The notes below the pieces were generated by a model. It worked only from the letters and a program-made list of their open reading frames with translations, made no database searches and was not told where the DNA came from. Shown one piece after another: positions 37,624-62,498 of a stretch of 64,000 nucleotides of DNA. The position numbers were made by a program, and so were the translations under genes. Source of the stretch: an uncultured Clostridia bacterium (GTDB taxonomy: Bacteria > Bacillota > Clostridia > Oscillospirales > Ruminococcaceae). The stretch lies in contig CANQOC010000005.1 of the NCBI GenBank assembly GCA_947625375.1, positions 45,630 to 109,629 of the forward strand, written 5' to 3'. Numbering within the stretch: the stretch's first letter is position 1; every line of letters begins with the position of its first letter.

Positions 37624-38061
37624 ATGTTAAAGATAAGAAAAATGGAAAGCCGCGACACCGAGGCCGTCATCGGCATGATGGAGACGTTTTATGCCTCCCC
37701 TGCGGTGATGACAAACGGTTCGCGGCAGATTTTTATGAACGACGCCGCCGAATGTGTCGGCGAAAGTCCGTTTCTCGACGGAATAATTTTCGAGGAGGAC
37801 GGCGAAATCGCGGGGTACGCGATGATTGCGCACAGCTTTTCGACCGAGTTCGGGCGGCGCTGCGTCTGGGTCGAGGACCTCTATATCCTCCCGGAATACC
37901 GCCGGCGCGGCATCGGGAGCGAATTCTTCGCGTGGCTCGAAAAGAGCTTTCCGGGGCAGGCCGTCAGGCTCGAGGCCGAGCGCGAAAACTCGGCGGCAAT
38001 AGCGCTCTATGAAAAGTGCGGCCTGCGGGAGCTCGGCTATCTCGAGATGATAAAGCTTTAA
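37624..38061 (+). CDS. GNAT-family N-acetyltransferase
   Basis: Motif A RRRGIGSEFFAWLE. SD ggtgagga lies upstream of the ATG at 37624. Confidence 0.8.
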   Translation: MLKIRKMESRDTEAVIGMMETFYASPAVMTNGSRQIFMNDAAECVGESPFLDGIIFEEDGEIAGYAMIAHSFSTEFGRRCVWVEDLYILPEYRRRGIGSEFFAWLEKSFPGQAVRLEAERENSAAIALYEKCGLRELGYLEMIKL

Positions 38062-39071
38062 AGTCCCGCGCCTTTAAGAAGTCCCTCGAAGACCGGCTTC
38101 GCGTCGTCATAGATACAGAGGCGCCTGCGGTCGAAGAGGCGGAAGTCGCGGCCCCCGTTGTCCCACCAGACCGGCACCATTCCGTATCTTATTGCACCTC
38201 CGACGAAGCACTCGCCCCAGCGGCGGCGGTCGTCGGGGTTGTTTTTGTTTATGATTCCCATTTCGCCGATTACGACCGGTATCCCCTTTGAGACAAAGCA
38301 CTCGTTAAGCTTCTTAAAGGTAAAGTCGAGCTCGCGTTCGCCCGCCTCGCCGAAGCGGTTGACGGCGGGGTCCTCCAAAAGACAGAGCGGCACCGGCTGG
38401 TATGAATGTACCGAGACGATAATCCTGTCCGACGGGTCGGAGGGGACGCGGAACGCGGGGACAAAGGTGTGATGCGGGGCGGCGGCGTATGACGGGGTCA
38501 TTAAAAACCGCTCGGAATTGTTCCCGCCCGACGCCCTCACCGTCTCGACAAAGACCTCGTTATAGCGGTTGATGTATTCAATCGCGTCGAGACAGAGGCG
38601 GTCGGAGAGGTCGAGGTTCCATTCGTATTTGTGCCGCAGCATTCTCGGCTCGTTCATCGACTCGAAAATCAGCTTCTGACCGAAGCCGCCGAAGCGCTCG
38701 GAAAGCTGTTCCCAGATTCGGCGGATATATACCTTTCCGCTCTCGAAGCCCTCGGCGGTCGGTTGGAAGAGGTGGTTGTCGTGATGAATGTTGACGATTG
38801 TGTAAAGTCCGGCGTCGAGGGAATACCCCGCGGCCTCGGCGACGCGCTCCAGAAACGCGGGGTCGATGTTATACTCCGCGTCGACATGGCGGCTCCACGA
38901 CACCGGCAGACGCAGCGTTTTAAAGCCGTATGACGCGATTTTTTCGAGCATCGCGCGCTCGGTTCGCGGGTTGCCCCATGAGGTTTCGTCCGGGGCGGCG
39001 TCGAAGGTGTTGCCGAGGTTCCATCCGATTCCCATGTCGGTCATAAGCCTTTCGGCGAGACGTTTCTCCAT
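38058..39071 (-). CDS. GH5 glycoside hydrolase (cellulase family), no signal peptide
   Basis: GWNLGNTFDA, acid/base ESMNEPR and nucleophile context VIGEMG. Confidence 0.88.
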   Translation of the reverse strand: MEKRLAERLMTDMGIGWNLGNTFDAAPDETSWGNPRTERAMLEKIASYGFKTLRLPVSWSRHVDAEYNIDPAFLERVAEAAGYSLDAGLYTIVNIHHDNHLFQPTAEGFESGKVYIRRIWEQLSERFGGFGQKLIFESMNEPRMLRHKYEWNLDLSDRLCLDAIEYINRYNEVFVETVRASGGNNSERFLMTPSYAAAPHHTFVPAFRVPSDPSDRIIVSVHSYQPVPLCLLEDPAVNRFGEAGERELDFTFKKLNECFVSKGIPVVIGEMGIINKNNPDDRRRWGECFVGGAIRYGMVPVWWDNGGRDFRLFDRRRLCIYDDAKPVFEGLLKGAGL

Positions 39072-39089: not shown

Positions 39090-40271
39090 TTACTCGGGTC
39101 TCGATGACTTGATTTCGTCGAGCGGGGTGACAAGTCCTGCCATAAGCCCGTCATATGCCGACTTGCTCTCTCCGTATACCTCGAGGTTTACGCGGTCGAA
39201 GAGACCGAACGCCTCGCTTCCGGGGGCGACGTTTCCGTTGTCCCACCAAACACAAACCTGTCCGCGGCTCTTCGCCTTCGCGACAAAATAGGTCGCCCAA
39301 TCCTGACGGTCATAGGGGTTGCTCTTGTTCGTGATTCCCATTTCGTCGATGATGACGCCGACGCCGTTTTTGCCGAATTTCTCGTAGTTTTTATCGATGA
39401 CGTCGTCAATCGAGCCGCGCGCCGCGGCGTCAAAGGTCTTTATATCCATTCTGTCGCCGTTCATCGCGAGGTCATAGGGGGTATAGGCGTGGACCGAAAT
39501 CAAAAGCTTTCCCTCGGCCGAGTCGGTCGGGAGCTTATAGGGGTCTTGGAGCGCATAGTACCCCGAGCCGCAGTATACCCCGAGGAGAAGATATCTCTCG
39601 GGATTCCTTCCGCCGGCGGCGCGGACGATGTCGACAAACCTCTGGTTGCAGTTGCTGATGATTTTTAAGGCGTCGAGGCAGTCGGTGTTGTTATAGTCGA
39701 CCCACCACTCATACTGCGTATTCGTAAGGCGCGGCTCGTTCATCGACTGGAAGATAAGGTGCTGGTCATAGTCCTTGAACCTCTCCGCAATCTGTGCCCA
39801 GATTTTTTCGATATAGTTATAGGTCTCGTCCTCGTGGGACTTCGAGGGATAATAGAAATCGTTGTCGTGATGAGAATTGAGGATTACGAACATGTCGTTG
39901 TCGAGAGCATAGTTCACAACCTCTTCGACGCGGTCCATCCAGTCTTCGTCGATGACGTAGTCCGGGGCGCCGGAGGTATGAAGTCCCCAAGAGGTCGGAA
40001 TCCTTATCGTGTTGAACCCGAGCTCGTGGATTTTATCTATCATCTCGTGGGTCGTGACCGGCTGGTACCAAGCGGTTTCGCCCTCGGGCGCGTCAAGGGT
40101 ATTTCCGAGGTTCCACCCCACGCCCATCTCGGACAAAAGCTCGTCCATCGAATATTCCTCGGCATTTACGGCCGCGTCGCCGTGGGTGTTGCCGACAGAA
40201 TCGCCGTTCCCGCAGGAGACGAGCGACAGCGCAATCAGCGCCGCAAGCATCAGAGTAAGAAATCTTTTCAT
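39090..40271 (-). CDS. GH5 glycoside hydrolase (cellulase family), lipoprotein
   Basis: Signal peptide with lipobox LVSCG, then GWNLGNTLDA, QSMNEPR and IIDEMG. Confidence 0.88.
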   Translation of the reverse strand: MKRFLTLMLAALIALSLVSCGNGDSVGNTHGDAAVNAEEYSMDELLSEMGVGWNLGNTLDAPEGETAWYQPVTTHEMIDKIHELGFNTIRIPTSWGLHTSGAPDYVIDEDWMDRVEEVVNYALDNDMFVILNSHHDNDFYYPSKSHEDETYNYIEKIWAQIAERFKDYDQHLIFQSMNEPRLTNTQYEWWVDYNNTDCLDALKIISNCNQRFVDIVRAAGGRNPERYLLLGVYCGSGYYALQDPYKLPTDSAEGKLLISVHAYTPYDLAMNGDRMDIKTFDAAARGSIDDVIDKNYEKFGKNGVGVIIDEMGITNKSNPYDRQDWATYFVAKAKSRGQVCVWWDNGNVAPGSEAFGLFDRVNLEVYGESKSAYDGLMAGLVTPLDEIKSSRPE

Positions 40272-40447
40272 ATCAAATCCTCCTTTAAATCAAAAAACTC
40301 CGGACTTATTATAATCCAACCCGCCGCTGTTGTCAACCGGATTAGAGGTTAGAAATTAGAGATTAGAAATTAGAAGTCAGAAAAATGCCCGCACGGTTAG
40401 ATGCGGGCGATTTTAAGGAAAAAGCTGTTATGCCGTTGTCGGTTAAA

Positions 40448-40708
40448 TCAGTCTCCCGAGCCGACCGGGCCGTTATATCCGCACCAGTCGCAGACAAGGC
40501 TGTTTCCGCCGTCGTACAGATAGATATACGACCCGCCGGACTTCTTGCACATCGGGCAGCAGGGCGCCGGGCGCGTCTTCTGCTCCGCGCCGTCGGATTT
40601 TTTCAGCATCGCGCCGACGCTCTTAATCACGTCGCCGACAATTCCGCCCCCGACAGCTCCCGAGAGCTCGCCGTCTTTAAGCTCGCAATCCTCTTTTCTG
40701 TTGGACAT
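40448..40708 (-). CDS. Array A member A10: double-glycine-leader peptide with zinc-ribbon-like core
   Basis: Leader ...ELKDGELSGAVGG. Core GIVGDVIKSVGAMLKK, a linker, then CCPMCKK...CDWCGYNGP. Confidence 0.75.
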   Translation of the reverse strand: MSNRKEDCELKDGELSGAVGGGIVGDVIKSVGAMLKKSDGAEQKTRPAPCCPMCKKSGGSYIYLYDGGNSLVCDWCGYNGPVGSGD

Positions 40709-40751
40709 TCCGTCAGCCTCCTTTCGTCCTCGGCCGGTCGGCCTTGGGTTA

Positions 40752-41069
40752 TCATCTCATCGTGACAAAGCCGAATTCGTCTTTTCCGATAGAGTCAGGC
40801 TTCGGGGGTTCTTTTTCCTCATGCTTTGGGCGGAACATGGACAGCCAAAAGTCTCCGCACGCTTCCAAAAAATCGTCAAGGATTTCAATTCCTCCGGCGG
40901 CGCCTTCGATTTCCTCGTCAGAAATCTCTCCGCTCCTCGCGTTTATCTTAGAGAAAAACTTCTCGGCGTCTTCCGGCGCGAGGTCCTTGCCGTTTTCCTT
41001 TGCAAGCTCGATAAGCTCGCCGGCGGACTTTGCCGCCCTTGCCCTTTTAATGAATTCTTCTTGTGTCAT
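40752..41069 (-). CDS. Array A member A9: Nif11-type-leader precursor
   Basis: Leader MTQEEFIKRARAAKSAGELIELAKENG...SGEISDEEIEGAAGG. 45-aa core IEILDDFLEACGDFWLSMFRPKHEEKEPPKPDS... Confidence 0.8.
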   Translation of the reverse strand: MTQEEFIKRARAAKSAGELIELAKENGKDLAPEDAEKFFSKINARSGEISDEEIEGAAGGIEILDDFLEACGDFWLSMFRPKHEEKEPPKPDSIGKDEFGFVTMR

Positions 41070-41092
41070 AATATTATCTCCTTTCGGTATTT

Positions 41093-41410
41093 TTATCTCA
41101 TCGTGACAAAGCCGAATTCGTCTTTTCCGATAGAGTCGGGCTTCGGGGGTTCTTTTTCCTCATGCTTTGGGCGGAACATGGACAGCCAAAAGTCTCCGCA
41201 CGCTTCCAAAAAATCGTCAAGGATTTCAATTCCTCCGGCGGCGCCTTCGATTTCCTCGTCAGAAATCTCTCCGCTCCTCGCGTTTATCTTGGAGAAAAGC
41301 TTCTCGGCGTCTTCCAACGCGAGGTTATTGCCGTTTTCCTTTGCAAGCTCGATAAGCTCGCCGGCGGACTTTGCCGCCTTTAATGTTTTAATAATTTCTT
41401 CGTTAGCCAT
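41093..41410 (-). CDS. Array A member A8: Nif11-type-leader precursor (paralog of A9, identical core)
   Basis: The C-terminal two thirds are identical in protein to A9, while the N-terminal leader is diverged. 341-bp tandem duplication. Confidence 0.8.
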   Translation of the reverse strand: MANEEIIKTLKAAKSAGELIELAKENGNNLALEDAEKLFSKINARSGEISDEEIEGAAGGIEILDDFLEACGDFWLSMFRPKHEEKEPPKPDSIGKDEFGFVTMR

Positions 41411-41458
41411 AATAATATCCTCCTGTAAATAAGTATCGGCTTTACTGTCCGAAGATTC

Positions 41459-41782
41459 TCAGTTCTTAATGATAACCTTCTTATTACGCGGATCCAACAG
41501 CTGGCAGAGCAGCATATCGGGTTCATGACCCAGATGTCTGCAGGTTCCGCAGCACCCCTGAAGAATAACCTTGGCTTCGCCGTTGGTAATGCCCTTTTGG
41601 CGCGCGTAAAGGGAAATATTCATTTCGCTCGGAGTGCTGTCGCCCGGCTGATACTGTCCGATAATACACTTGGTGTCAAGCTTAATGACGGGATAGTCGA
41701 GAGAGCCTTCGCCCCCGCCCGCCGCGGCGCTGAGCTTAACGTCGTTAATTTCGCTGTGCTTAATAATCTCTTCATCTGCCAT
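41459..41782 (-). CDS. Array A member A7: short GG-leader precursor with 84-aa core
   Basis: Leader MADEEIIKHSEINDVKLSAAAGG. The core ends ...LQGCCGTCRHLGHEPDMLLCQLL... Confidence 0.72.
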   Translation of the reverse strand: MADEEIIKHSEINDVKLSAAAGGGEGSLDYPVIKLDTKCIIGQYQPGDSTPSEMNISLYARQKGITNGEAKVILQGCCGTCRHLGHEPDMLLCQLLDPRNKKVIIKN

Positions 41783-41823
41783 AATATCGCCTTCTTTCTT
41801 AACGATTAAATTAACCCGGGTTA

Positions 41824-42159
41824 TTAGTTTAGATATAACGGTCCTTCATATCCGCAGTCGTCACAGTAAATCATCTTTGTGCCGTCGGGAGCGTCGTGAA
41901 TAAAAATCCATGCCGACGACGTCTGACCGCAAATCGGGCATTTTTCGGGAGTCCAAGGCGGCGCCGCGGGAGTGGGAGCTTTCGGCTCTTTCTGCTTTTT
42001 CGGCTTAGAGTCCTTTCCACCGTAAAACAAACCGCCGATAGATTCCTTGACCCAGTCAACTACTCCCCCGCCGGCGACATTGTCGAGATTGTCGTCCGAG
42101 ATTTCGTGCGGCTCGGCGGCCTCGATTTTTTCTTCTTTTTTGATTTCCTTTTCAGACAT
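41824..42159 (-). CDS. Array A member A6: GG-leader peptide with zinc-ribbon-like core
   Basis: Leader ...HEISDDNLDNVAGG. Core GVVDWVKESIGG, a Lys/Pro-rich linker, then CPICGQ...CDDCGYEGP. Confidence 0.75.
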   Translation of the reverse strand: MSEKEIKKEEKIEAAEPHEISDDNLDNVAGGGVVDWVKESIGGLFYGGKDSKPKKQKEPKAPTPAAPPWTPEKCPICGQTSSAWIFIHDAPDGTKMIYCDDCGYEGPLYLN

Positions 42160-42205
42160 AATATTATCTCCTTTAAATAAATTTCGTCAGTCGGATATGC
42201 GGTCA

Positions 42206-42451
42206 TCAGACCGAGGACAAGGGCCCCTCATATCCGCACAGCAAGCATTTAATCATAACCGTGCCGTCATCGGCCGCGGTGCCGAAAACAAAAACATTGT
42301 CCACAGGCTTATGGCAAAAGGGGCAGAGGTCGGGTTCCTTCGGCTTCTCCCAAGGATAATGCAAATCCGCCTTAATCCAATCATCGATTGCTCCCCCTCC
42401 CGACGCCTTTTCGAGAGCGCCGTCCGAGAGCTCGCTGTTAAGCCTTTTCAT
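42206..42451 (-). CDS. Array A member A5: GG-leader peptide with zinc-ribbon-like core
   Basis: The ATG at 42451 follows SD aaggagga. Leader MKRLNSELSDGALEKASGG. Core GAIDDWIKADL...CPFCHK...CLLCGYEGP. Confidence 0.75.
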   Translation of the reverse strand: MKRLNSELSDGALEKASGGGAIDDWIKADLHYPWEKPKEPDLCPFCHKPVDNVFVFGTAADDGTVMIKCLLCGYEGPLSSV

Positions 42452-42474
42452 TGCAGCTCCTCCTTCGCGGGTCA

Positions 42475-42657
42475 TCAAAGCCTGCACATGCCGTTGCCGC
42501 AATATTGTCTGCAGTTGTCACAGGACTTATCTTTACTGCCATACTTCCCATTAAAAAGGTCGCAGTAATGCTCGGGCGGGCAGTCGTGACCCCCGTCGAC
42601 CCCGACGCTCTTTCCGCCGGTAACCTTCTCGGTTTCAATGTCTTTAGATTCTTTCAT
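42475..42657 (-). CDS. Array A member A4: bacteriocin-type GG-leader, 6-Cys core
   Basis: MKESKDIETEKVTGG then KSVGVDGGHDCPPEHYC...SCDNCRQYCGNGMCRL. Confidence 0.8.
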   Translation of the reverse strand: MKESKDIETEKVTGGKSVGVDGGHDCPPEHYCDLFNGKYGSKDKSCDNCRQYCGNGMCRL

Positions 42658-42682
42658 TGTAAAGTCCCCTTTCTTCAGTCAA

Positions 42683-42868
42683 TCAAAGTCTGCACCTGTT
42701 GTTGCCGGAATACGCCTGACAGTTGTCACAGGACGTATCCTTCTTCCACTTATCCTTCGCGCAAAATCCTCCGCAGGTATGCGCGGGCGGGCAGTCGTGA
42801 CCCCCGTCGACTCCGACGCTCTTTCCGCCGGTTGCTTCCTCAATCTCGAAATCATTAAGCTCTTTCAT
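42683..42868 (-). CDS. Array A member A3: bacteriocin-type GG-leader, 6-Cys core
   Basis: MKELNDFEIEEATGG then KSVGVDGGHDCPPAHTCGGFC...SCDNCQAYSGNNRCRL. Confidence 0.8.
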   Translation of the reverse strand: MKELNDFEIEEATGGKSVGVDGGHDCPPAHTCGGFCAKDKWKKDTSCDNCQAYSGNNRCRL

Positions 42869-42891
42869 TGTAAATCCTCCTTAAAATAATG

Positions 42892-43110
42892 TTATCGTGC
42901 ATGGTTGCACAGGTCTTTTCCGTCGTTGTTTTTTCCGCAATGGTGACGGCAGTTGTAACAGGAATCCGGGTCTCCCGGAAGTCTTCCGCTGCCCTCTTTC
43001 TCGTGATAATACTTGCATATCTTGCTTTCGGGACAGGTCCAATAGCCGTAGACGTTGACGGTTCTTCCGCCGGTGACTTCCTCAATCTCGAAATCATTAA
43101 GCTCTTTCAT
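42892..43110 (-). CDS. Array A member A2: bacteriocin-type GG-leader, 6-Cys core
   Basis: MKELNDFEIEEVTGG then RTVNVYGYWTCPESKIC...GDPDSCYNCRHHCGKNNDGKDLC. Confidence 0.8.
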   Translation of the reverse strand: MKELNDFEIEEVTGGRTVNVYGYWTCPESKICKYYHEKEGSGRLPGDPDSCYNCRHHCGKNNDGKDLCNHAR

Positions 43111-43127
43111 TGTAATTCCTCCTTAAA

Positions 43128-43355
43128 TTACGGTTCCCACCAAGCTAATGTGCACAGGTTTTCTCCCTTTTGATTATATCCGCAGAAGAAGCGGCAGTAG
43201 ATGCAGGAATCAGGGTCTCCCGGCTGTTTGACCATGCCATCCTTAAATAAATAATGCTTACACATACGGCTTTCGGGACCAACCCAATAACCTATCGGGT
43301 TGACACTTCTTCCTCCGGCGGCCGTCTCGAGTTCCTTGTCGTTAATTTCTTTCAT
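43128..43355 (-). CDS. Array A member A1: bacteriocin-type GG-leader, 5-Cys core
   Basis: MKEINDKELETAAGG then RSVNPIGYWVGPESRMC...GDPDSCIYCRFFCGYNQKGENLC. Confidence 0.8.
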   Translation of the reverse strand: MKEINDKELETAAGGRSVNPIGYWVGPESRMCKHYLFKDGMVKQPGDPDSCIYCRFFCGYNQKGENLCTLAWWEP

Positions 43356-43405
43356 TGTAATTTCTCCTTTCAGCGATTTAGCTCGCGTTGTTTTCTTGTA
43401 CTTCC

Positions 43406-43469
43406 ATTATACCACTATTTTTTGATTTTGGCGTGTCGTTTACGTCACATTTCGTGTCGTTTACGTCAC
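43406..43469 (-). promoter_or_regulatory. Array A promoter: two phased 16-bp direct repeats plus an extended -10
   Basis: On the minus strand: GTGACGTAAACGACAC, gaaat, GTGACGTAAACGACAC, 21 nt, TGgTATAAT. The -35 is weak (ACGCCA). Confidence 0.7.
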
Positions 43470-44245
43470 TTTTGCGCGTCAACCGAAACCGCGAACAGCC
43501 TTTCGGCATTTTCCCGCGCCGAAAATAGGATTGAATCGGGGTCGGTGCCGCGAAGCTCGGCGGCCTTTGCGGCGGTATATTTTATCATCGAGCTGTCGCT
43601 GGTCTTCCCGCGGAAGGGTTCGGGCGCCATATAGGGGCAGTCGGTCTCGAGGAGAAGCCTGTCCCCCGGCATTTTTTGGACGACCTCCTGTGCCTTCTTC
43701 GAGTTTTTGAAGGTGAGTGCGCCGGTGAAGCCGAGATACATTCCGAGCGAGAGAATCTCCTTCGCAGTCTCCCATGAGCCGGAGAAGCAGTGCATCACCC
43801 CGCGTGGTCTAAGCTCGCGGAGGATTTCGACACAGTCCCCGGTGGCGTCGCGCGAGTGGACGATTATCGGGAGTCCGAGTGAATTCGCCATCTCAATCTG
43901 TGCGCGGAAAAGCTCAATCTGCGCCGCGCGGTCGTATCCCTCATAGTGATAGTCGAGGCCGATTTCGCCGACGGCGACGACCTTTTTCGAGCCGAGAGCA
44001 ATATCCCTGAGCCGCGAGAGGCTGTCCGAGGAATACTCCGAGGCATATTCGGGGTGAATTCCGACAGAGGTATAATACCGCGGGTATTTTTCCGACATCA
44101 TTAAGCCGAATTCCGCCGACTTCGGGTCGGTCGAAGCGTGAATAATCCCGCAGACATCGCCCGAAAATAGCGACGAAACAAGGGCGTCGGGGTCGGGAAA
44201 ACGCGGGTCGTCGTAGTGGGAATGAGTGTCGAAAATAAGTGACAT
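43466..44245 (-). CDS. tatD: TatD-family metal-dependent hydrolase/DNase
   Basis: FDTHSHYDD and further conserved His/Asp positions (VHSRD, MHCFSG, ETDCPY). The ATG at 44245 follows SD aaaggcgg. Confidence 0.9.
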   Translation of the reverse strand: MSLIFDTHSHYDDPRFPDPDALVSSLFSGDVCGIIHASTDPKSAEFGLMMSEKYPRYYTSVGIHPEYASEYSSDSLSRLRDIALGSKKVVAVGEIGLDYHYEGYDRAAQIELFRAQIEMANSLGLPIIVHSRDATGDCVEILRELRPRGVMHCFSGSWETAKEILSLGMYLGFTGALTFKNSKKAQEVVQKMPGDRLLLETDCPYMAPEPFRGKTSDSSMIKYTAAKAAELRGTDPDSILFSARENAERLFAVSVDAQK

Positions 44246-44334: not shown

Positions 44335-45162
44335 ATGTTAAAAACGCTTTTCCCGAACGGACTGAAAAAGGCGTTCACGCTTAGCTATGACGACGGCTGT
44401 TATGATGATATCAGACTTTTGGGCATGATGTCAAGCCGCGGGATTCGCGGGACGTTCAACATTAGCTCGGGAATAACCCGTCCCGAGGGGCAGGAATTTA
44501 TCGGCGCTTGGGAGAGAATGACGCCGTCGGAGCTTGAAAACTATGACCGCGAGGGAATCGAGGTCGCGGTTCACGGCGTCCGCCACCGCGATTTTACGAA
44601 AATTTCGGAGTCCGAGCTTATCTATGAGATTATGGCGGACAAGAGCGCGATTGAGCGCCGGTTTTCGAGGGTCATACGCGGCGCGGCGTACCCCTATGGC
44701 AGCTTTGACGACCGCTCGGTCGAGGCGCTGAGGCGCTGCGGGATAAAATACTGCCGGACAGTCTGGTCCGACGATTCGTTAAAAATGCCGGCGGACTGGC
44801 TTCGGCTGCGCCCGAGCTGTCACCACAGCGACCCGAAGCTCGGCGAGATGACCGAAAGGCTTTTGGGCGAGGATGAGCCGGAGAGGAGAATGCTCTATGT
44901 CTGGGGGCATACGCCCGAGTTCCGGCGGGACAGCAACTGGGAGCTGATGGAGAGGCTGCTCGACCGCGTCGCGGGGCGGAAAGACGTCTGGTACGCGACG
45001 AACATCGAGATTTGCGAGTATGAGCTTGCGGCGCGTGCGCTCGAATACTCCGCCGACGGCGGGTACGTCTTTAATCCGACGTCGCTCGAAATCTGGCTCG
45101 AGCGCAACGGCGAGCCGATGAGCGTCAAGCCGAACGAGACCGCCGAAGCGTGGAGAGAATAA
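44335..45162 (+). CDS. Polysaccharide deacetylase-family protein
   Basis: NodB-like FTLSYDDG motif and HGVRH. The ATG at 44335 follows SD agaggag. Confidence 0.8.
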   Translation: MLKTLFPNGLKKAFTLSYDDGCYDDIRLLGMMSSRGIRGTFNISSGITRPEGQEFIGAWERMTPSELENYDREGIEVAVHGVRHRDFTKISESELIYEIMADKSAIERRFSRVIRGAAYPYGSFDDRSVEALRRCGIKYCRTVWSDDSLKMPADWLRLRPSCHHSDPKLGEMTERLLGEDEPERRMLYVWGHTPEFRRDSNWELMERLLDRVAGRKDVWYATNIEICEYELAARALEYSADGGYVFNPTSLEIWLERNGEPMSVKPNETAEAWRE

Positions 45163-45164
45163 AA

Positions 45165-45690
45165 ACTAAAAGTTTTCGCTCAAGCCTTTTTCAAAAGGCT
45201 TGCTGTGCAAGCCGGTTTTGTTCCTGCTCGACCGCCCTCGCGATACCGAACCGTTTCGGTTGTCTTGCAGACAAAACCGGCGTGCACCGGTCCAGAGGCG
45301 AGTAGCCTCTGGTCGCGCTCCGCAGAGCGCGAAATCCCCTACGAAGTGCGCTCCGCAAGGGGTGAATTGCAAAAAACTATCCTGTGGATAGTCGATTACG
45401 ACAAAATGAGGGCAAAGGCGAAGCCTTTGCTTAGGCGTCGCTGACGAAAGTACGACACTGTAGTCATTTGGGCGACGCCTTGAGGCCACTGCAAGAGAGG
45501 GCCTCCCCTTATGATTCCGCCGTGCGACAGCGCGGCGGCACCTCGTAGTCACTCGTGCGACGCCTTGGGACCCCTCGCCGGGGGTCCCCTGCTTGCCGAA
45601 CGATGAGTGAGGCAAGTGAAAAGTCCGGCGATGTGCAAGCCTTCCCCGTCATGCGACAGCATGACGGCACCATCGTCCCCACACAAAAAA
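45165..45690. repeat. Mosaic intergenic block of hairpin modules
   Basis: aaaaactaaaagttttcg plus palindrome 45181-45202, ccagaggcgagtagcctctgg, tgcgctccgcaaggggtgaattgc, ccgtcatgcgacagcatgacgg. Colinear with the 20.8 kb and 24.3 kb blocks. Confidence 0.9.
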
Positions 45691-49221: not shown

Positions 49222-50721
49222 ATGTTGAAAAAAATCATATCGCTGCTCCTTGCGGTACTTATGATTGTCGCGCTTGTCGGCTGTGGAAAATCCGGGAGAG
49301 AGATTATTAAGCTCACCCTTTCCACCGAAGACTCCGCCGCAATCCTTGCCGCCGCGGGCATCAGACTCCCCGCGCCCGAAGAGGCCGCCGGAGCCGGCAC
49401 CACCGTCAAGTGGTTCAGCCACGACGACTGGTTCCACAACTATGACGAAGGCGAAGTCGTAAACACCGGATTCTTCACCTTCACCGAAATGTACGGCTGT
49501 GAGCTCGAATGGGTACAGACCGTTTGGGGACAGAGATTCGACGACCTTGCGAATCAGATTCTCGGCGGAACCCCCCCGGATTTCACCTCGGCCGAGACCT
49601 CGCTCTTCCCGATGAAGGTTATGAAGGGCATCATTCAGCCTGTTGAGGACTACATAGACTACGATTCTCCGCTCTTTGCCGAGATGAAGCCCTATGTCGA
49701 CACCTATTTCACCCTCAACGGACACCAGTATTACATGCTCACCGATATGGGATTCGGCTGTGTCTTCCCGTATAACAGAAGAGTCATCAACGACTTCGGC
49801 TATGACGACCCCGCCGACCTCTTCTATAACGACCAGTGGACCTGGGACGAATTCTCCGAAATGTGCCTCGACTTTACCGACCCCGACGCCGACAGATACG
49901 CGCTCGACGGCTGGTACTTCTCGAGAGCGATTATGCAGTCCACCGGCGTATCCGTTGTCGGATATAACGCCGATACCGGACGCTTCTTCTCGAACCTCGA
50001 CGATCCGAGACTCGAAAGAGCCGCGGACGCCCTCTATGAGCTTCAGAAGAACGAGACCTGCTATCCTTGGTGGAACGGTTGGGTCACAAGAAACGGCGGC
50101 GTCGAGGGCGGCGGCGTAAAGGACGGCCTCTGCCTGTTCTGGCCTGTCGGCTCTTGGGGATTCACCGGTCCTGTTGAGACGATTGCCGCCAACTGGGGCG
50201 ACGTAACCCAGAACGAGCTTATGTTCGTTCCTTCCCCGAGAGACCCGAACGGCGACGGCAACTATTACCTCGACTGTGAGCCGAACGGATACGTCCTCAT
50301 CAATCAGGCCGAGAACCCCGAGGGCGTTGCGCTTCTTGCGATGTGCGACCGCTTCAAGATTGTCGACCCGACCGTCGTGAACATCGACGAGTATCAGCTT
50401 AAGAACACCTATAAGTGGACCGACGAGATGCTCGACATGTATCACACCTGCTACGAGATGGCCAACTCGGGCGTCGGAAATATCCTCCTCACCTACGGCG
50501 TTGACGCCGACGCGGGATACGGCTCCGACATCGGCGGAATGCTCCGCAACTTCAACGACGACATCGGTCACCCGACCTCTGCCGGCGGTGCCGCGACTTG
50601 GGCACAGGCAAAGGCTTCGTATCAGGATACGCTTGAATACAACATCGACGAGCTCAACAAGAGACTCGACGAGTTTGAAGCAAGCGGCGGTGTCGCAGAG
50701 CCTTCTGCGGGCAACAGCTGA
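49222..50721 (+). CDS. Lipoprotein, extracellular solute-binding-protein-like (orphan)
   Basis: Signal peptide with lipobox LVGCG. About 470-aa SBP-like body, paralogous to 50922..52379. No permease or ATPase genes are adjacent. Confidence 0.75.
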   Translation: MLKKIISLLLAVLMIVALVGCGKSGREIIKLTLSTEDSAAILAAAGIRLPAPEEAAGAGTTVKWFSHDDWFHNYDEGEVVNTGFFTFTEMYGCELEWVQTVWGQRFDDLANQILGGTPPDFTSAETSLFPMKVMKGIIQPVEDYIDYDSPLFAEMKPYVDTYFTLNGHQYYMLTDMGFGCVFPYNRRVINDFGYDDPADLFYNDQWTWDEFSEMCLDFTDPDADRYALDGWYFSRAIMQSTGVSVVGYNADTGRFFSNLDDPRLERAADALYELQKNETCYPWWNGWVTRNGGVEGGGVKDGLCLFWPVGSWGFTGPVETIAANWGDVTQNELMFVPSPRDPNGDGNYYLDCEPNGYVLINQAENPEGVALLAMCDRFKIVDPTVVNIDEYQLKNTYKWTDEMLDMYHTCYEMANSGVGNILLTYGVDADAGYGSDIGGMLRNFNDDIGHPTSAGGAATWAQAKASYQDTLEYNIDELNKRLDEFEASGGVAEPSAGNS

Positions 50722-50921
50722 TAAATATCAACCTCAAGAGGGGCATTTCGCCCCTCTTTGTTATATCTCTCCGCGAAATTCCTTAAAGCAAGGTATTGTA
50801 TAACATGATAATAAATATAAGCAGTTTTTGTGTTTAATGCCTATTGCCAATATGCCGCGGGGTATGATAAAATTAAGAGACGGCTTTTACCGTAAAAACA
50901 TTATATTTAGGAGGACTGAAA

Positions 50922-52379
50922 ATGATAAAAAGGGTTCTGGCTCTCGGTCTTGCCCTTTTGGTGATTATCGCGCTGATGGGCTGCGGCGCCAATAAGAGAC
51001 AGATTATTGAGCTTACACTTTCGACCGAAGACGCAGAGGCGATTCTCGCCGCGGCGGGAATTCGGCTTCCCGACCCCGCGACCGCTCCGGGCGCGAATTC
51101 GACAATCGTCTGGTACAGCTGGTACGACGACTTCCACGCTTACAGCGAGGGCGAGGTTGTCAACACCGGTTACTTTACCTTCAAAAACTTCTACGGCTGC
51201 GAAATCGACTGGGTTGAGTGCACTTGGGACGAAAGGTTCACAAGAGTTGCGGCGCTCGTCCTCGGAGGCACCCCCCCGGACTTCTATAACGGCGAAACCG
51301 AAAACTTCCCTTATTACGCTATTCACAACGTATTCCAGCCGATTAACGACTATATCGACCTTGACGACCCGCTCTGGGACGGCATTTCGGACTATATGCG
51401 TAAATATTTCTCGCTCGGCGACGACGTATATCTCCTTTGCACCGACCTGTTCTTCGGAAGCGTTATGGCTTATAACCGAAGAGTCATCGAGGACTACGGC
51501 TTCGACGACCCCGCCGAGCTCTTCTATGACGGCGAGTGGACTTGGGACGCATTCGAGGAAATGGCGATGGACTTCTCGGACGAGGAGCTTGACCAATACG
51601 CTCTCGACGGCTGGTTCTATGCCGGCGCATTCCAGCGCGCAAGCGGCGCCCCGATAGTTACATATGACCTTGAGACCGAAAAGTTCGTCTCGAATATGGA
51701 CGACCCGAGACTCGAGCGCGCAAACGACTTTCTCTATAACCTCAACAAGAACGGCTGTATCTTCCCGTGGTTCAACAACGGGTATCAGGTCAGGAATCAG
51801 GGCGCTTCCTCTGCCGCCGACTACGGCGACGGCCTTAAGGAAGGACAGCTTCTCTTCAGCACCGGCGGTCCTTACTTCTTCACCGGACCCGTCGACGAAA
51901 TCTCGATGGAATATGCCGACGTAACCGCGGGCGAGCTTATGTTCGTCCCGATTCCGAGAGACCCGCAGGGCGACGGCATAAACTATGTCGAATCCGACCC
52001 GGCAGGCTACAGCATCATTCAGGACGCTCCCAACCCCGAGGGCGTTGCGCTCCTTGCGATGTGCGACCGCTTCAAGGTCATCGACCCGACCGTCATCAGC
52101 ATCGACAAGCTCCAGAAGATTGAAAAATACCTCTGGACCGACGAGATGCTCGAGATGTATGACTACTGCGTCGAGATGGCAAACAACTCCGACTCGGTTA
52201 TCCTCGCCTATGACGCGGCGGGATTCGGCGGAAACCTCTACTCGACCATCGACACCATCGAAAAGAACGGCATGCAGCTCAACACCAGCACTTGGGCACA
52301 GATTAAGGAAGCCAACAGCGATATGCTCCAGTATTATCTCGACGACATCAACGCCGAGATTGAAGGACTTTTAAGCTGA
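50922..52379 (+). CDS. Lipoprotein, extracellular solute-binding-protein-like (orphan paralog)
   Basis: Lipobox LMGCG. Shares LTLSTED..AILAAAGIRLP, GGTPPDF and ENPEGVALLAMCDRFK with the upstream paralog. Confidence 0.75.
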   Translation: MIKRVLALGLALLVIIALMGCGANKRQIIELTLSTEDAEAILAAAGIRLPDPATAPGANSTIVWYSWYDDFHAYSEGEVVNTGYFTFKNFYGCEIDWVECTWDERFTRVAALVLGGTPPDFYNGETENFPYYAIHNVFQPINDYIDLDDPLWDGISDYMRKYFSLGDDVYLLCTDLFFGSVMAYNRRVIEDYGFDDPAELFYDGEWTWDAFEEMAMDFSDEELDQYALDGWFYAGAFQRASGAPIVTYDLETEKFVSNMDDPRLERANDFLYNLNKNGCIFPWFNNGYQVRNQGASSAADYGDGLKEGQLLFSTGGPYFFTGPVDEISMEYADVTAGELMFVPIPRDPQGDGINYVESDPAGYSIIQDAPNPEGVALLAMCDRFKVIDPTVISIDKLQKIEKYLWTDEMLEMYDYCVEMANNSDSVILAYDAAGFGGNLYSTIDTIEKNGMQLNTSTWAQIKEANSDMLQYYLDDINAEIEGLLS

Positions 52380-52449: not shown

Positions 52450-52513
52450 TTGACGCAGATGACACCTTTTTCCCGCAAACGACAAGGCACAGAGGGAAAA
52501 GATGTGATATAAT
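52450..52513 (+). promoter_or_regulatory. Array B promoter: degenerate copies of the array A direct repeat plus an extended -10
   Basis: TTGACGCAGATGACAC (12/16 match to GTGACGTAAACGACAC), about 20 bp on TTCCCGCAAACGACAA (11/16), then 22 nt to TGaTATAAT (52505-52513). Confidence 0.6.
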
Positions 52514-52557: not shown

Positions 52558-52989
52558 ATGAACGAAATCATTAAAAAAGCAAGAGCGGCAAAGTCGGCCG
52601 GAGAGCTCATCGAGCTTGCGAAAGCCAACGGCAAGGACCTCACCAAAGAACAGGCCGAGATGTTCTTCAAAAGCCTCAGCCAAGGCGGCGAGATATCCGA
52701 CGAGGAGCTTTCGAGCGCGGTCGGCGGGTGCGGCGGTTCGGAAATATCCTGGGAGAAGAGCCTCGGCTTCTCGAGAATCGATTGCCGAAAGGGCGACTTC
52801 GTCGGGGGACACACCTTTGCGGCGAAGACGTATTGGAAGTGCGCCATCTGCGGGGGACACATCTACTGCGACGGTCCTTTGACCGCATACACCAACTGCA
52901 CCCACCTCAAGCAGCATAAGGTCCTCGGCTGTAACAACTGCTTTTTCAACGAGAACGGAAAATGCAACTACTATGACGACAGCCTTTGA
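52558..52989 (+). CDS. Array B member B1: Nif11-type-leader precursor, 86-aa 9-Cys core
   Basis: Leader MNEIIKKARAAKSAGELIELAKANG...GEISDEELSSAVGG. The core starts CGGSE, contains WKCAIC and ends GCNNCFFNENGKCNYYDDSL. Confidence 0.8.
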   Translation: MNEIIKKARAAKSAGELIELAKANGKDLTKEQAEMFFKSLSQGGEISDEELSSAVGGCGGSEISWEKSLGFSRIDCRKGDFVGGHTFAAKTYWKCAICGGHIYCDGPLTAYTNCTHLKQHKVLGCNNCFFNENGKCNYYDDSL

Positions 52990-53019
52990 TTAAGGGCAGG
53001 GTTCTGAGGAGGTATTATC

Positions 53020-53445
53020 ATGAACGAGGAAATTTTAGCAAAGGCAAAGGCGGCAGGTTCGCCGGAGGAGCTTTTAAAGCTTGCTCACGAAAACGGCATG
53101 TCCTACTTTACCGAGGAGAACGCGAACGCTTATTTCAACGTCCTGCACCAGAGCGGCGAGATTACGGACGAAGAGCTTGAAAAAGCGGCGGGAGGCTGCA
53201 AGAGCAACAAGAGGCGTGTCGTTACGCTCGGATACATCTGCCCCGTAAACTACGGAGGCTGGAAGTGCAAGGACTGCCTTGCGCCGAACAACGTCTGCAA
53301 GTGCTGGCTACAGCCGCCGGAGCTTTCGCGCAAGTTCCACGCGTCAATCTTCGCGTGGTGCGCCGATACATGCAGCACCTGCGCGTGGTGTTCATATGAA
53401 AGCGGCATATGGTACTGCAACAACCCCGAAGCAAACGAACTGTAA
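53020..53445 (+). CDS. Array B member B2: Nif11-type-leader precursor, 82-aa 11-Cys core
   Basis: Leader ...AAGSPEELLKLAHENG...SGEITDEELEKAAGG. The core starts CKSNK, contains WKCKDC and CSTCAWCSYESGIWYCNNP. Confidence 0.8.
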   Translation: MNEEILAKAKAAGSPEELLKLAHENGMSYFTEENANAYFNVLHQSGEITDEELEKAAGGCKSNKRRVVTLGYICPVNYGGWKCKDCLAPNNVCKCWLQPPELSRKFHASIFAWCADTCSTCAWCSYESGIWYCNNPEANEL

Positions 53446-53465
53446 TCCCGAAGGGAGAATTTAAC

Positions 53466-53891
53466 ATGTTTAACGAAGAAATGATTAAAAAAATCCGCGG
53501 ACTCGGCTCGCCCGAGGAGCTTATTGAGTTCGGAAAGGAAAACGGCGTCGCAATCAGCAAGGAGACGGCGGAGAAGTATTTTAACTCGCTTCACGGCAGC
53601 GGCGAAATCTCGGACGAGGAGCTTGAGAACACCGCCGGCGGCTGCGGCGGAGGCTATTCGCCGTCGATATATAAGCAATGCCCCGAATGCGGGACAAATA
53701 TCGCGATGAAGGACTTCCGCGACGTCAAGGTTATCGTCAGCGACGAGGTTCTCCACCAGTGGGGATATCCGACCGGCGTATGCCCGAAATGCAACGTCCG
53801 CTATGCTTATGTCCGCGCGCTGAATATGCTCTATCCCGTATCGGTTGACGAAAAGGGCACTTGGGTCATAAGACCGCCGCACAGATATTAA
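53466..53891 (+). CDS. Array B member B3: Nif11-type-leader precursor, 82-aa core with two CxxC pairs
   Basis: The ATG at 53466 follows SD aagggaga. Leader ...SGEISDEELENTAGG. Core CGGGYSPSIYKQCPEC...GVCPKC. Confidence 0.8.
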   Translation: MFNEEMIKKIRGLGSPEELIEFGKENGVAISKETAEKYFNSLHGSGEISDEELENTAGGCGGGYSPSIYKQCPECGTNIAMKDFRDVKVIVSDEVLHQWGYPTGVCPKCNVRYAYVRALNMLYPVSVDEKGTWVIRPPHRY

Positions 53892-53903
53892 AGGAGCTTT
53901 ATC

Positions 53904-54398
53904 ATGAACGACGAAATTTTAGCAAAGGCAAAGGCGGCGGGGTCGCCGGAGGAGCTTTTGAAGCTGGCTCACGAAAACGGCATGTCCTACTTTACCGAGG
54001 AGAACGCAAGGGCGTATTACAGCCTTATGCACCAAAGCGGTGAGATATCCGACGAGGAGCTTGAAAACGCGGCGGGAGGCTGTCGGAAGGGCGGGTATAG
54101 GGTTGTCTCGCGCGGAAATGTATGCGGCTTGGGGCAGTCGGTGGCAATCAACGGCTTCTATGCGTTCACTGAGTGGAAATGCAAGACCTGTAAAGAAATG
54201 CCGGGAGCCGGACTTAGCTTTGAAGACTGGTATAATGTTCACAGGTCATGCAGCTGCAACCGCAGCATATTAGACTCTGTTGCATTTTCGCTCGGCGTAT
54301 CCGTCAACTTCGGGGCGGTCGGAGTCTGCGGCTCCTGCGATTGGTGCAATTACGTCGACGGCGTTTGGATTTGCACAAACCCGCGTGATGCCGAGTGA
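53904..54398 (+). CDS. Array B member B4: Nif11-type-leader precursor, 105-aa 10-Cys core
   Basis: The leader is nearly identical to that of B2. The core starts CRKGG, contains WKCKTC and CGSCDWCNYVDGVWICTNP. Confidence 0.8.
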   Translation: MNDEILAKAKAAGSPEELLKLAHENGMSYFTEENARAYYSLMHQSGEISDEELENAAGGCRKGGYRVVSRGNVCGLGQSVAINGFYAFTEWKCKTCKEMPGAGLSFEDWYNVHRSCSCNRSILDSVAFSLGVSVNFGAVGVCGSCDWCNYVDGVWICTNPRDAE

Positions 54399-54415
54399 AC
54401 ATAACTGAGAAAGCC

Positions 54416-54547
54416 ATGAAAGAAGAAATCATTAAAAACGGCGAGATTTCAGACGACGAGCGTGAAAGCGCGGTCGGCGTCCTCGACTACAGGCGCTTCT
54501 CGGAGGTGCAGATTATCGAGGTCTATCACGCATACGGCGGCTTCTGA
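54416..54547 (+). CDS. Array B member B5: 43-aa ORF with a collapsed or decayed leader (remnant or possible signalling peptide)
   Basis: Not in the ORF track. MKEEIIKNGEISDDERESAVGVLDYRRFSEVQIIEVYHAYGGF. Retains the leader ends (EEIIK and GEISDDE..SAVG) but has GV in place of GG. Weak SD. Confidence 0.4.
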   Translation: MKEEIIKNGEISDDERESAVGVLDYRRFSEVQIIEVYHAYGGF

Positions 54548-54587: not shown

Positions 54588-54660
54588 ATGACCCTTGCGG
54601 CGGACAACGCTTAAAAACTCCGTTTTCGCATATAATCATTATATACGAAGAAAGGGAGCG

Positions 54661-61337: not shown

Positions 61338-61361
61338 ATAGTTTCCTCGTCACTCTTCGTT

Positions 61362-62451: not shown

Positions 62452-62498
62452 CGGAAAGCGCTCCGAGAGGAGCGCCCCGATAAAACAGATATGTTTTC

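What the first reader, a model, noticed from the sequence alone, without database searches (positions are those of the whole stretch)
43406..43469. Two perfect 16-bp direct repeats phased 21 bp apart abut a weak -35 / extended -10 promoter upstream of array A
Read on the minus strand, the region is GTGACGTAAACGACAC-gaaat-GTGACGTAAACGACAC, then 21 nt, then TGgTATAAT, then ~50 nt to the SD and ATG of A1. The promoter-proximal repeat ends where a -35 hexamer should be, and that hexamer is poor (ACGCCA). A 21-bp phasing puts both sites on the same face of the helix. This is the classical layout of activator-dependent promoters in bacteriocin and competence regulons, where response regulators bind direct repeats. 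The distal repeat overlaps the tatD stop codon, so it is not simply spacer DNA.
Basis: seen in the sequence. Interest (0 to 1): 0.8.

Follow-up and report, generated by a model that had tools for sequence, protein, structure and literature searches.

The report
LytTR-type activator site before peptide array
Two phased DNA repeats just upstream of a cluster of small secreted-peptide genes are very probably the docking site of a quorum-sensing-type (LytTR) response regulator that switches the cluster on; the layout is classical, but this particular motif and its regulon in uncultured gut Clostridia have not been described.

Summary
Two perfect copies of GTGACGTAAACGACAC(G) lie 21 bp apart on the minus strand. 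They are followed by a poor -35 (ACGCCA), TGgTATAAT, and about 50 nt to the SD/ATG of the first of ten double-glycine-leader peptide genes.

The same layout recurs at nine other promoter types: core, 9-10 nt, core, 19-21 nt, TGnTATAAT, with no usable -35.
- It precedes the window's second peptide array (52454-52513).
- It occurs at four divergent promoters of homologous peptide/radical-SAM loci.
- It occurs at four promoter types in gut-metagenome contigs; two unrelated species carry the identical CGTAAACGACA core directly beside a divergently transcribed GHKL (AgrC-type) histidine kinase and a LytTR response regulator.

This geometry matches published LytTR sites (9-11-nt repeats with 11-13-nt spacers, next to the -35).

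Three things remain open. The regulator gene of this genome was not found in the window or within 10 kb beyond either edge. Binding and activation are inferred, not shown. The signal is unknown.

Verdict: a new member of a known kind, of moderate interest.

The parts
43454..43469 (-). Distal direct repeat GTGACGTAAACGACAC. The conserved core CGTAAACGACA is 43465-43455, centred near -61 relative to the predicted start. It overlaps the tatD stop codon (43468-43466).
   Evidence: Invariant in 15 conspecific contigs.
43433..43448 (-). Proximal direct repeat GTGACGTAAACGACAC. The conserved core CGTAAACGACA is 43444-43434. It ends 22 nt before TATAAT, i.e. it abuts and overlaps the -35 position.
   Evidence: In 3 of 15 conspecific contigs only position 16 (C>T) and the base 5' of the repeat (T>A) differ; the core is unchanged.
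43429..43434 (-). Non-consensus -35 hexamer ACGCCA (3 of 6 matches to TTGACA) at 17-nt spacing from the -10.
   Evidence: The -35 is poor (0-4 of 6) at all ten promoter types.
43406..43414 (-). Extended -10 element TGgTATAAT. The predicted transcription start is near 43399 (inferred, not mapped).
   Evidence: TGnTATAAT is present at the same distance at A-F (found without requiring it) and at G-J, where the search pattern required it.
43353..43368 (-). Shine-Dalgarno AGGAG (43368-43364) and ATG (43355-43353) of the first peptide gene A1.
40448..43355 (-). Array A: ten tandem genes for small double-glycine-leader peptides. A1-A4 are Cys-rich with MKE(L/I)ND...GG leaders. A5, A6 and A10 have GGG leaders and a zinc-ribbon-like C-terminus. 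A7 also has a GGG leader and a Cys-rich C-terminal part without the ribbon match. A8 and A9 have Nif11-like leaders. A terminator-like hairpin lies at 40408-40387. This is the presumed regulated operon.
   Evidence: Gene calls in conspecific contigs.
43466..44245 (-). tatD-family hydrolase gene immediately upstream. No terminator separates it from the array, so read-through is possible.
   Evidence: PF01026, E = 1.8e-75.
52454..52513 (+). Second copy of the same promoter layout in front of array B: CGCAGATGACA (52454-52464), 9 nt, CGCAAACGACA (52474-52484), 20 nt, TGaTATAAT (52505-52513). The -35 position reads AGGCAC.
52558..54547 (+). Array B: five tandem genes. Four encode Nif11-like-leader, Cys-rich peptides of 141-164 aa; one encodes a 50-aa peptide. 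This is the second presumed member of the regulon in the window.

Best explanation
The two repeats are the binding sites of a LytTR-family response regulator. One monomer is proposed to bind each 11-bp core (CGTAAACGACA). The cores are centred about 21 bp apart, on the same face of the helix, near -61 and -40. The proximal monomer abuts the position where a -35 hexamer is missing.

Once phosphorylated by an AgrC-type (GHKL / HATPase_c_5) histidine kinase, the regulator would recruit sigma-A RNA polymerase. The polymerase would otherwise have only the extended -10 (TGgTATAAT) to hold on to. This would switch on the ten-gene double-glycine-leader peptide array. The same regulator would switch on array B (52454-52513) and, elsewhere in this or closely related genomes, divergent peptide/radical-SAM maturase operons.

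Shown: the repeats, their geometry, their conservation at ten promoter types, and their adjacency to a LytTR two-component pair in two other species.

Inferred: that a LytTR protein binds them, that binding activates rather than represses, the position of the transcription start, and the existence of the cognate kinase and regulator in this genome.
For: 1. Anatomy. Perfect repeats at a 21-bp period; the proximal core ends 22 nt before TATAAT; the -35 is 3 of 6; the extended -10 is perfect.

2. The same layout precedes the window's other GG-peptide array. These are the only two such pairs in 64 kb.

3. Homologous peptide arrays were found by protein similarity, not by the motif. They carry the layout on both sides of two divergent intergenic regions (L098 C/D, L102 E/F). 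The spacers are unrelated, so the cores rather than a duplication are what is kept.

4. A metagenome scan for the layout returned 60 contigs. About 50 belong to one human-gut species and two to another (GC 47% and 37%). In both, CGTAAACGACA repeats sit in the intergenic region shared with a divergently transcribed GHKL histidine kinase (564 and 555 aa, 39% identical). A convergent LytTR response regulator follows (268 and 244 aa, 52% identical; Pfam LytTR E = 1e-22 and 4e-20). The kinase and regulator were not part of the search pattern.

5. That regulator matches solved LytTR domains (3d6w, ComE 4cbv, AgrA 3bs1).

6. In one of those species the regulated operon is PqqD + radical SAM + ABC exporter, i.e. 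also a modified-peptide locus.

7. Literature. LytTR sites are two 9-11-nt repeats separated by 11-13 nt, without a shared consensus (PMC4847170). They lie just upstream of the -35, often with an extended -10 (PMC6193735).

8. All ten promoter types lack a good -35 (0-4 of 6). In contrast, the kinase genes' own promoters in L112 and L149 have recognisable -35 hexamers (read).

9. There is no RNA structure (z = -0.04) and no Rfam family in the spacer.
Against: - No LytTR regulator or GHKL kinase is encoded in the 64-kb window, within 10 kb beyond either edge, or in the fetched loci of the peptide-array clade.
- A perfect TGnTATAAT can support transcription without an activator, so the sites might modulate or repress rather than be required.
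- Promoter types G-J were retrieved with a pattern that fixed 6 of the 11 core positions and the -10. Their agreement at those positions is therefore by construction. The independent parts are the identity at the free positions and the neighbouring genes.
- Types D-F were found with a regular expression derived from A-C.
- Within the species the whole 110-bp spacer is almost invariant, so strain comparison says little.
- There is no experimental datum of any kind.
Confidence: 0.75

Rival explanations
1. The repeats are bound by a different kind of direct-repeat-binding activator. Candidates are an AraC/XylS-family dimer (half-sites about 21 bp apart, the proximal one overlapping the -35) or tandem OmpR/PhoB-type dimers, such as the OmpR-type regulator encoded at 10657-11364.
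For: Direct repeats with about 21-bp phasing that overlap the -35 are also the AraC/XylS arrangement (established knowledge). The window encodes an OmpR-family regulator and kinase. No LytTR gene was found in this genome's available sequence.
Against: In the two species where neighbours are informative, the adjacent regulator is LytTR, not AraC or OmpR. The conserved core is a single 11-bp block. It does not consist of two boxes one helical turn apart, as expected for two-HTH AraC proteins, nor of half-sites at 10-11 bp as for OmpR/PhoB. The OmpR-type pair lies 32 kb away next to unrelated genes and has no motif nearby.
Confidence: 0.1
2. The sites are a negative operator. A protein (LytTR or other) bound at -34 to -70 hinders an intrinsically strong extended -10 promoter, and the array is derepressed when the protein leaves.
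For: All ten promoters have a perfect TGnTATAAT (required by the search pattern at G-J). In Firmicutes this can drive transcription without a -35 (established knowledge). Some LytTR regulators, such as PlnD, repress from the same repeats used by the activator (cited in PMC4847170).
Against: Repressor sites normally overlap the -10 or the start site, not only the region upstream of -34. The systematic lack of a -35, together with a site abutting that position, is the signature of activation.
Confidence: 0.08
3. Each 16-mer is a palindromic operator (GTGnCGTnnACGnCAC, 12 of 16 self-complementary) for a dimeric helix-turn-helix protein. Two dimers would be centred at about -41.5 and -62.5, as at class II/class I CRP/FNR-type promoters.
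For: The 16-mer is partly self-complementary (read; one search shows the reverse strand scoring 12 of 16). The centres fall near -41.5 and -62.5.
Against: The left half (GTGA) is not conserved at the other nine promoter types; only positions 5-15 are. All twenty sites have the same polarity relative to the -10. This is a property of direct, asymmetric sites.
Confidence: 0.04
4. The pair is a neutral 21-bp tandem duplication at the 3' end of tatD with no regulatory role.
For: The two 21-bp units are 19 of 21 identical, as a recent slippage duplication would be.
Against: The same core pair recurs with unrelated spacers at the same distance from an extended -10 at nine other promoter types in several species. 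None occurs with an extended -10 in 1.23 Mb of control sequence.
Confidence: 0.02

Closest known systems
AgrA sites at the staphylococcal agr P2/P3 promoters (LytTR response regulator with AgrC kinase)
   Same: Two direct repeats with about 21-22-bp phasing immediately upstream of a promoter with a deficient -35 region. The regulator has a LytTR domain, and the kinase has the GHKL/HATPase_c_5 catalytic domain that Pfam finds in the kinases next to the motif here (established knowledge for agr).
   Different: The core sequence is CGTAAACGACA / CGCAGAYGACA rather than ACAGTTAAG. The associated kinase (555-564 aa) is longer than AgrC and has a long N-terminal region before its membrane domain. 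No AgrB/AgrD-like genes were seen next to it.
Class II bacteriocin and competence regulons of lactic acid bacteria and streptococci (PlnC/PlnD, ComE, BlpR, SppR)
   Same: Double-glycine-leader peptide genes are driven from promoters with two 9-11-nt direct repeats about 21 bp apart in place of a -35. Several unlinked operons share the motif (established knowledge; geometry cited in PMC4847170).
   Different: Here the peptide arrays lie among housekeeping genes. No C39-peptidase ABC exporter, kinase or regulator lies beside them. The peptides are long and Cys-rich, many with Nif11-like leaders, and in related loci they are tied to radical SAM/SPASM maturases. The host is an uncultured Oscillospiraceae-like Clostridium.
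LytTR regulatory systems of Streptococcus mutans (HdrRM, BrsRM)
   Same: Two 9-bp direct repeats separated by 11-13 bp lie a few bp upstream of the -35. An extended -10 is present, and bacteriocin genes are controlled (PMC6193735).
   Different: Those regulators lack a receiver domain and are held by a membrane inhibitor. The regulators next to the motif here are full response regulators with a receiver domain and a partner kinase.
VirR boxes of Clostridium perfringens (VirS/VirR)
   Same: A clostridial LytTR response regulator binds two imperfect direct repeats upstream of toxin promoters (reference listed in PMC4847170; established knowledge).
   Different: The box sequence and the target genes differ, and there is no evidence of orthology. 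NCBIfam gives only sub-threshold matches to BtsR, LytR and AgrA.

Membership tests
LytTR-type direct-repeat operator (AgrA/ComE/PlnC class of promoters) | Two repeats of 9-11 nt in the same orientation | tested here: met
   Two identical copies with an 11-nt conserved core. All 20 sites at 10 promoter types have the same polarity relative to the -10.
LytTR-type direct-repeat operator (AgrA/ComE/PlnC class of promoters) | Repeats separated by 11-13 nt (start-to-start about 20-22 bp for a 9-nt repeat) | tested here: met
   Start-to-start distance is 21 bp here and 20-21 bp at all ten promoter types. That is 9-10 nt between 11-nt cores, equivalent to 11-12 nt between 9-nt repeats (criterion from PMC4847170, and PMC6193735).
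LytTR-type direct-repeat operator (AgrA/ComE/PlnC class of promoters) | Position immediately upstream of, or abutting, a weak or absent -35, with a good (often extended) -10 | tested here: met
   The proximal core ends 22-24 nt before TATAAT. The -35 hexamers match TTGACA at 0-4 of 6 positions. TGnTATAAT is present at 10 of 10 types, but the search pattern required it at G-J.
LytTR-type direct-repeat operator (AgrA/ComE/PlnC class of promoters) | Bound by a LytTR-domain protein | not testable with these tools
   Only indirect evidence. The identical core lies beside a LytTR response regulator plus GHKL kinase in two unrelated species (L112 type and L149 type).
LytTR-type direct-repeat operator (AgrA/ComE/PlnC class of promoters) | Cognate LytTR regulator (and kinase) encoded in the same genome | tested here: inconclusive
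   tblastn with the L112 and L149 regulator and kinase found nothing in the window, in its 10-kb extensions, or in L081-L102. The rest of the genome could not be searched.
Three-component class II bacteriocin locus (inducer peptide + kinase + regulator + C39 ABC exporter next to the bacteriocin genes) | Double-glycine-leader peptide genes | tested here: met
   Fifteen peptide genes in arrays A and B, fourteen with ...GG/GGG leader ends; the 50-aa gene of array B lacks a clear one.
Three-component class II bacteriocin locus (inducer peptide + kinase + regulator + C39 ABC exporter next to the bacteriocin genes) | Dedicated C39-peptidase ABC exporter and kinase/regulator genes adjacent to the peptide genes | tested here: not met
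   None in the window or its extensions. Exporters are adjacent only in the distant, ECF-sigma-type arrays.
CRP/FNR-type class II promoter site | Palindromic site whose two halves are both conserved, centred near -41.5 | tested here: not met
   The centre is near -41, but the left half of the 16-mer is not conserved at the other promoters and all sites are unidirectional.
Nif11-like leader RiPP precursor family (TIGR03798 / PF07862), for part of the regulated genes | Score above the curated cut-off of the leader model | tested here: inconclusive
   Window peptides score 24-26 bits against a cut-off of 32.3. A profile of their leaders retrieves 721 proteins, several carrying PF07862 or named Nif11-like RiPP precursor by NCBI.

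The most novel reading that the evidence does not exclude
The motif marks a so far undescribed, widely distributed regulon of gut Clostridia. It would be governed by one orthologous LytTR two-component system whose kinase carries a large N-terminal sensor region. The binding specificity (CGTAAACGACA / CGCAGAYGACA) would have stayed nearly constant across genomes of 37-54% GC, while the targets were rewired: giant FG-GAP-like surface proteins in one species, a PqqD/radical-SAM peptide operon in another, and multiple precursor-peptide arrays in this organism. Those arrays are scattered among ribosomal and other housekeeping genes, unlinked from any maturase, exporter or regulator. The regulator would thus co-ordinate in trans a dispersed, strain-variable arsenal of modified peptides. 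One of the array peptides might be its own signal.
Probability: 0.4. Interest if true: 0.6.

Novelty: new member of a known kind. Interest (0 to 1): 0.4.

Why it matters
If correct, this gives a testable cis-regulatory code (CGYARAYKRCA, 9-10 nt, CGYARAYKRCA, 19-21 nt, TGnTATAAT). With it, the peptide and radical-SAM regulon of uncultured Oscillospiraceae-like gut bacteria could be read directly from metagenomes.

It also links orphan precursor-peptide arrays, which have no neighbouring maturase, exporter or regulator, to a specific sensor system.

It points to a candidate LytTR two-component family, common in human-gut contigs, whose signal and targets are unknown. Those targets include roughly 1,950-aa secreted proteins.

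It does not reveal a new principle of regulation. The architecture is the textbook LytTR one.

Tried and rejected
1. Phylogenetic footprinting through tatD. Eighty orthologous loci from GTDB species (best 74% aa identity) have no peptide array next to tatD and no motif. The array is lineage-specific, so this route was uninformative.

2. Strain comparison. The 110-bp spacer is almost invariant in 15 conspecific contigs, so it gives little resolution.

3. Homologues of peptide A1. None exist outside the species.

4. Palindrome / CRP-like reading. Rejected because the left half is not conserved.

5. Spo0A-box, cre, PhoP/WalR-type half-sites and a -35 element at a 22-23-nt spacer. These were considered from memory and rejected because the conserved columns do not fit.

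6. RNA-level explanations (a tatD terminator or a leader structure). The fold z-score is -0.04 and there is no Rfam hit.

7. ECF-sigma promoter. Distant homologous arrays do carry an ECF-like sigma with STAS and anti-sigma genes. They lack the motif, and the window's promoters have sigma-A-type -10 elements.

8. The OmpR-type pair in the window (9223-11364). No motif lies nearby and nothing links it to the arrays.

9. Literature search for the motif string. Only unrelated primers were found.

10. Search for the regulator by extending the window edges and by looking at further arrays. Not found.

11. One strict-pattern hit (L029) lies inside an htrA-like coding region without a -10 and was discarded as chance. 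L160 (in front of smpB) is also probably chance.

Full report
**Observation**

On the minus strand the sequence reads AAAA-GTGACGTAAACGACAC-GAAAT-GTGACGTAAACGACAC-GCCAAAATCAAAAAATAG-TGGTATAAT (43469 down to 43406). About 50 nt follow before AGGAG and the ATG at 43355. The repeat is perfect over 17 nt, with a start-to-start distance of 21 bp. The tatD stop codon TGA (43468-43466) lies inside the distal copy. The hexamer at 17-nt spacing from the -10 is ACGCCA. With up to three mismatches the 16-mer occurs three times in the window, against 0.41 expected; the third hit is a 3-mismatch match in a coding region.

**Context**

The window has 54% GC. It carries housekeeping genes (recA, rimO, alaS, recG, secE-nusG-rplK-rplA, greA, lysS) of a Clostridia-type chromosome. 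The closest TatD in GTDB species representatives is 74% identical and comes from rabbit-gut MAGs. The next relatives are Oscillospiraceae and Ruminococcus MAGs.

Downstream of the repeats lie ten tandem genes (43355 to 40448, minus strand) for small peptides with double-glycine leader ends.
- Four are Cys-rich peptides with MKE(L/I)ND...GG leaders.
- Three have GGG leaders and a zinc-ribbon-like C-terminus.
- One has a GGG leader and a Cys-rich C-terminal part.
- Two have Nif11-like leaders.

The array ends at a terminator-like hairpin. A second array of five genes lies at 52558-54547 on the plus strand; four encode Nif11-like-leader, Cys-rich peptides and one a 50-aa peptide. Neither array has a maturase, exporter, kinase or regulator next to it.

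**The same layout precedes array B**

Upstream of array B the sequence is TTGA-CGCAGATGACA-CCTTTTTCC-CGCAAACGACA, then 20 nt, then TGATATAAT (52454-52513). It shows that only positions 5-15 of the 16-mer are kept. Scored against the resulting core CGYARAYKRCA, the window contains exactly two pairs at 20-21-bp spacing. Both are perfect, both have TGnTATAAT 19-20 nt downstream, and both sit in front of the only two peptide arrays. Shuffles gave 0.2 pairs on average. The 1.23 Mb of tatD-centred control loci gave 17 pairs at the same score, none of them with the extended -10.

**Related loci found through the peptides, not through the motif**

- tatD orthologue loci in 80 species have neither array nor motif.
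- Fifteen conspecific contigs keep the cores unchanged. Their only differences are the base 5' of the proximal repeat and its position 16. The spacer as a whole is nearly invariant, so this says little. The number of array genes varies between strains.
- Searches with the Nif11-like leaders led to loci L098-L101 and L102. There, arrays of homologous peptides flank radical SAM/SPASM enzymes.
- Both loci have a divergent intergenic region, and both sides of each carry the layout:
  - L098 plus strand: CGCAAACGGCA-9-CGTAGATTACA-20-TGATATAAT
  - L098 minus strand: CGCAGATTACA-9-CGCAGACTACA-20-TGATATAAT
  - L102 plus strand: CGCAGACGACA-9-CGCAGATGACA-20-TGTTATAAT
  - L102 minus strand: CGCAGAAAACA-9-CGCAGACAACA-20-TGGTATAAT
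- The spacers and tails are unrelated in sequence. The cores and their geometry are therefore what is maintained, and a neutral tandem duplication is excluded.
- More distant homologous arrays lack the motif (L103-L106, L167-L171, L179). They are organised as C39 ABC exporter + ABC + array + rSAM/SPASM. In L103-L106 and L167-L171, where that part of the locus was fetched, a small protein and an ECF-like sigma factor follow, with STAS or anti-sigma genes nearby. The motif is thus restricted to one clade of these systems.

**Which protein binds?**

A scan of the metagenome collection for the layout used the reverse-complement pattern ATTATANCA N{18,21} TGNNNTYTRCG N{9,10} TGNNNTYTRCG. It returned 60 contigs.

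- About fifty contigs are one human-gut species (for example L112). They carry CGTAAACGACA-9-CGTAAACGACA-20-TGATATAAT, the very core of the window's array A, in front of a 1,985-aa secreted protein. Eighty bases away and divergently transcribed is a 564-aa histidine kinase with the GHKL/HATPase_c_5 domain. Converging on it is a 268-aa response regulator with a LytTR domain (Pfam E = 1e-22).
- A second, AT-rich species (L149, L137) has CGTAAACGACA-10-CGTAGATAACA-21-TGGTATAAT in front of a PqqD / radical SAM / ABC-exporter operon. This promoter too diverges from an orthologous kinase (39% identity) and a LytTR regulator (52% identity).
- Two further promoter types (L154 and L161) have the motif without a regulator in the fetched flank.
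- The kinase and regulator were not part of the search. A LytTR pair lying directly beside the motif in two unrelated species is very unlikely by chance.
- The regulator matches solved LytTR domains, including ComE and AgrA. It reaches no curated NCBIfam equivalog, so it belongs to an uncharacterised subfamily.

**Fit to the known class**

According to PMC4847170, the sites of almost all LytTR regulators are two repeats of 9-11 nt separated by 11-13 nt, with no common consensus. According to PMC6193735, the repeats lie a few bp upstream of the -35, are usually 12 bp apart (11-13), and can accompany an extended -10.

The ten promoter types here are summarised.
- The period is 20-21 bp.
- The proximal core ends 22-24 nt before TATAAT, so it reaches the -35 position.
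- The -35 hexamers match TTGACA at only 0-4 of 6 positions.
- TGnTATAAT is perfect in all ten, although the search pattern required it at G-J.

By contrast, the kinase genes' own promoters in L112 and L149 have recognisable -35 hexamers (read). This is the signature of activator-dependent promoters. With a predicted start near 43399, the cores are centred near -40 and -61, on one face of the helix.

**Rivals**

- The partial dyad symmetry of the 16-mer (12 of 16) suggested a dimeric HTH site centred at -41.5. The left half is not conserved and all sites share one polarity.
- AraC/XylS-type or OmpR-type binding cannot be excluded without the genome. It is not supported by the neighbours or by the single-block shape of the core.
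- A repressor role is possible, because the extended -10 is strong. The position upstream of -34 and the missing -35 argue for activation.
- RNA-level roles are excluded.

**Limits**

- The regulator of this genome was not found in the window, within 10 kb beyond either edge, or in the related array loci.
- Promoter types D-J were retrieved with patterns derived from earlier examples. The invariance of six core positions is therefore partly by construction. The independent evidence is their position relative to the -10 and to homologous genes, the identity at unconstrained positions, and the LytTR neighbours.
- Nothing here is experimental.

**Verdict**

The element is best described as a LytTR-type activator site. 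Its core motif does not appear in the searched literature. It is shared by a small regulon of peptide and radical-SAM operons in this clade, and by targets of an orthologous two-component system in other gut Clostridia. It is a new member of a known kind, with moderate interest (0.4) and confidence of about 0.75.

Noticed in passing
window 52454-52513 (+): Array B, whose genes encode Nif11-like-leader Cys-rich peptides, has its own copy of the repeat / extended -10 layout (CGCAGATGACA-9-CGCAAACGACA-20-TGaTATAAT). It is a second member of the presumed regulon, not listed in the finding.
   Followed up: yes
window 40448-43355 (-); L086-L095: The number of genes in array A differs between conspecific contigs: one to three copies of the 60-61-aa A3/A4 type, and one or two Nif11-type genes. 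The array is therefore evolving by tandem gain and loss. A8 and A9 are 95% identical over 300 nt.
   Followed up: partly
L103-L106, L167-L171, L179: More distant homologous peptide arrays are wired differently. They have a C39-peptidase ABC exporter + second ABC + array + rSAM/SPASM. In L103-L106 and L167-L171 a 60-78-aa protein and an ECF-like sigma factor follow, with STAS and HATPase_c_2 (partner-switching) genes nearby. The direct-repeat motif is absent.
   Followed up: partly
L114 10757 (-), L145 6593 (-): In two human-gut species the same motif drives genes for giant secreted proteins (1,985 and 1,931 aa). One has FG-GAP/VCBS-like Asp-rich repeats and the other has a three-fold internal repeat. 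Their function is unknown.
   Followed up: no
L149 6103-6113 (+): A weaker third core-like sequence (AGTAAAAGATA) lies 20 bp upstream of the distal core in the PqqD/rSAM promoter. It may be a third binding site.
   Followed up: no
window 54595-54852 (+): This is an 85-aa Cys-rich ORF (CPHLGH...CLECLNRADCGYSEEGC) just after array B. It has its own CATATAAT -10-like element, no family match and no repeat motif.
   Followed up: no
window 2949-3370, 15566-15742, 21529-21618; also 3521-3626, 20784-20914, 21184-21266, 21392-21497, 24262-24494, 45162-45648, 54929-54997: Several families of dispersed intergenic repeats were seen. One forms tandem units of about 122 bp. Others contain GC-rich hairpins such as AGGAAAACTCC...GGAGTTTTCCT. 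They look like REP/MITE-like or terminator-associated elements and give rise to spurious ORFs.
   Followed up: no
window 58169-63673; L175: The right end of the window is an integrated element. It carries a DNA methyltransferase + SNF2 helicase + HTH gene set, an HTH_17 protein and, just beyond the window, RelB, DUF3801 and a large serine recombinase.
   Followed up: partly
window 40308-40336 (-): A perfect consensus promoter (TTGACA-17-TATAAT) precedes the two GH5 cellulase genes (39090-40271, 38058-39071) directly downstream of array A. This contrasts with the -35-less array promoter.
   Followed up: no
window 49222-52379 (+); L086, L090: Two tandem paralogous solute-binding lipoprotein genes lie between the ribosomal genes and array B. 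The second is replaced or truncated in some conspecific contigs.
   Followed up: no
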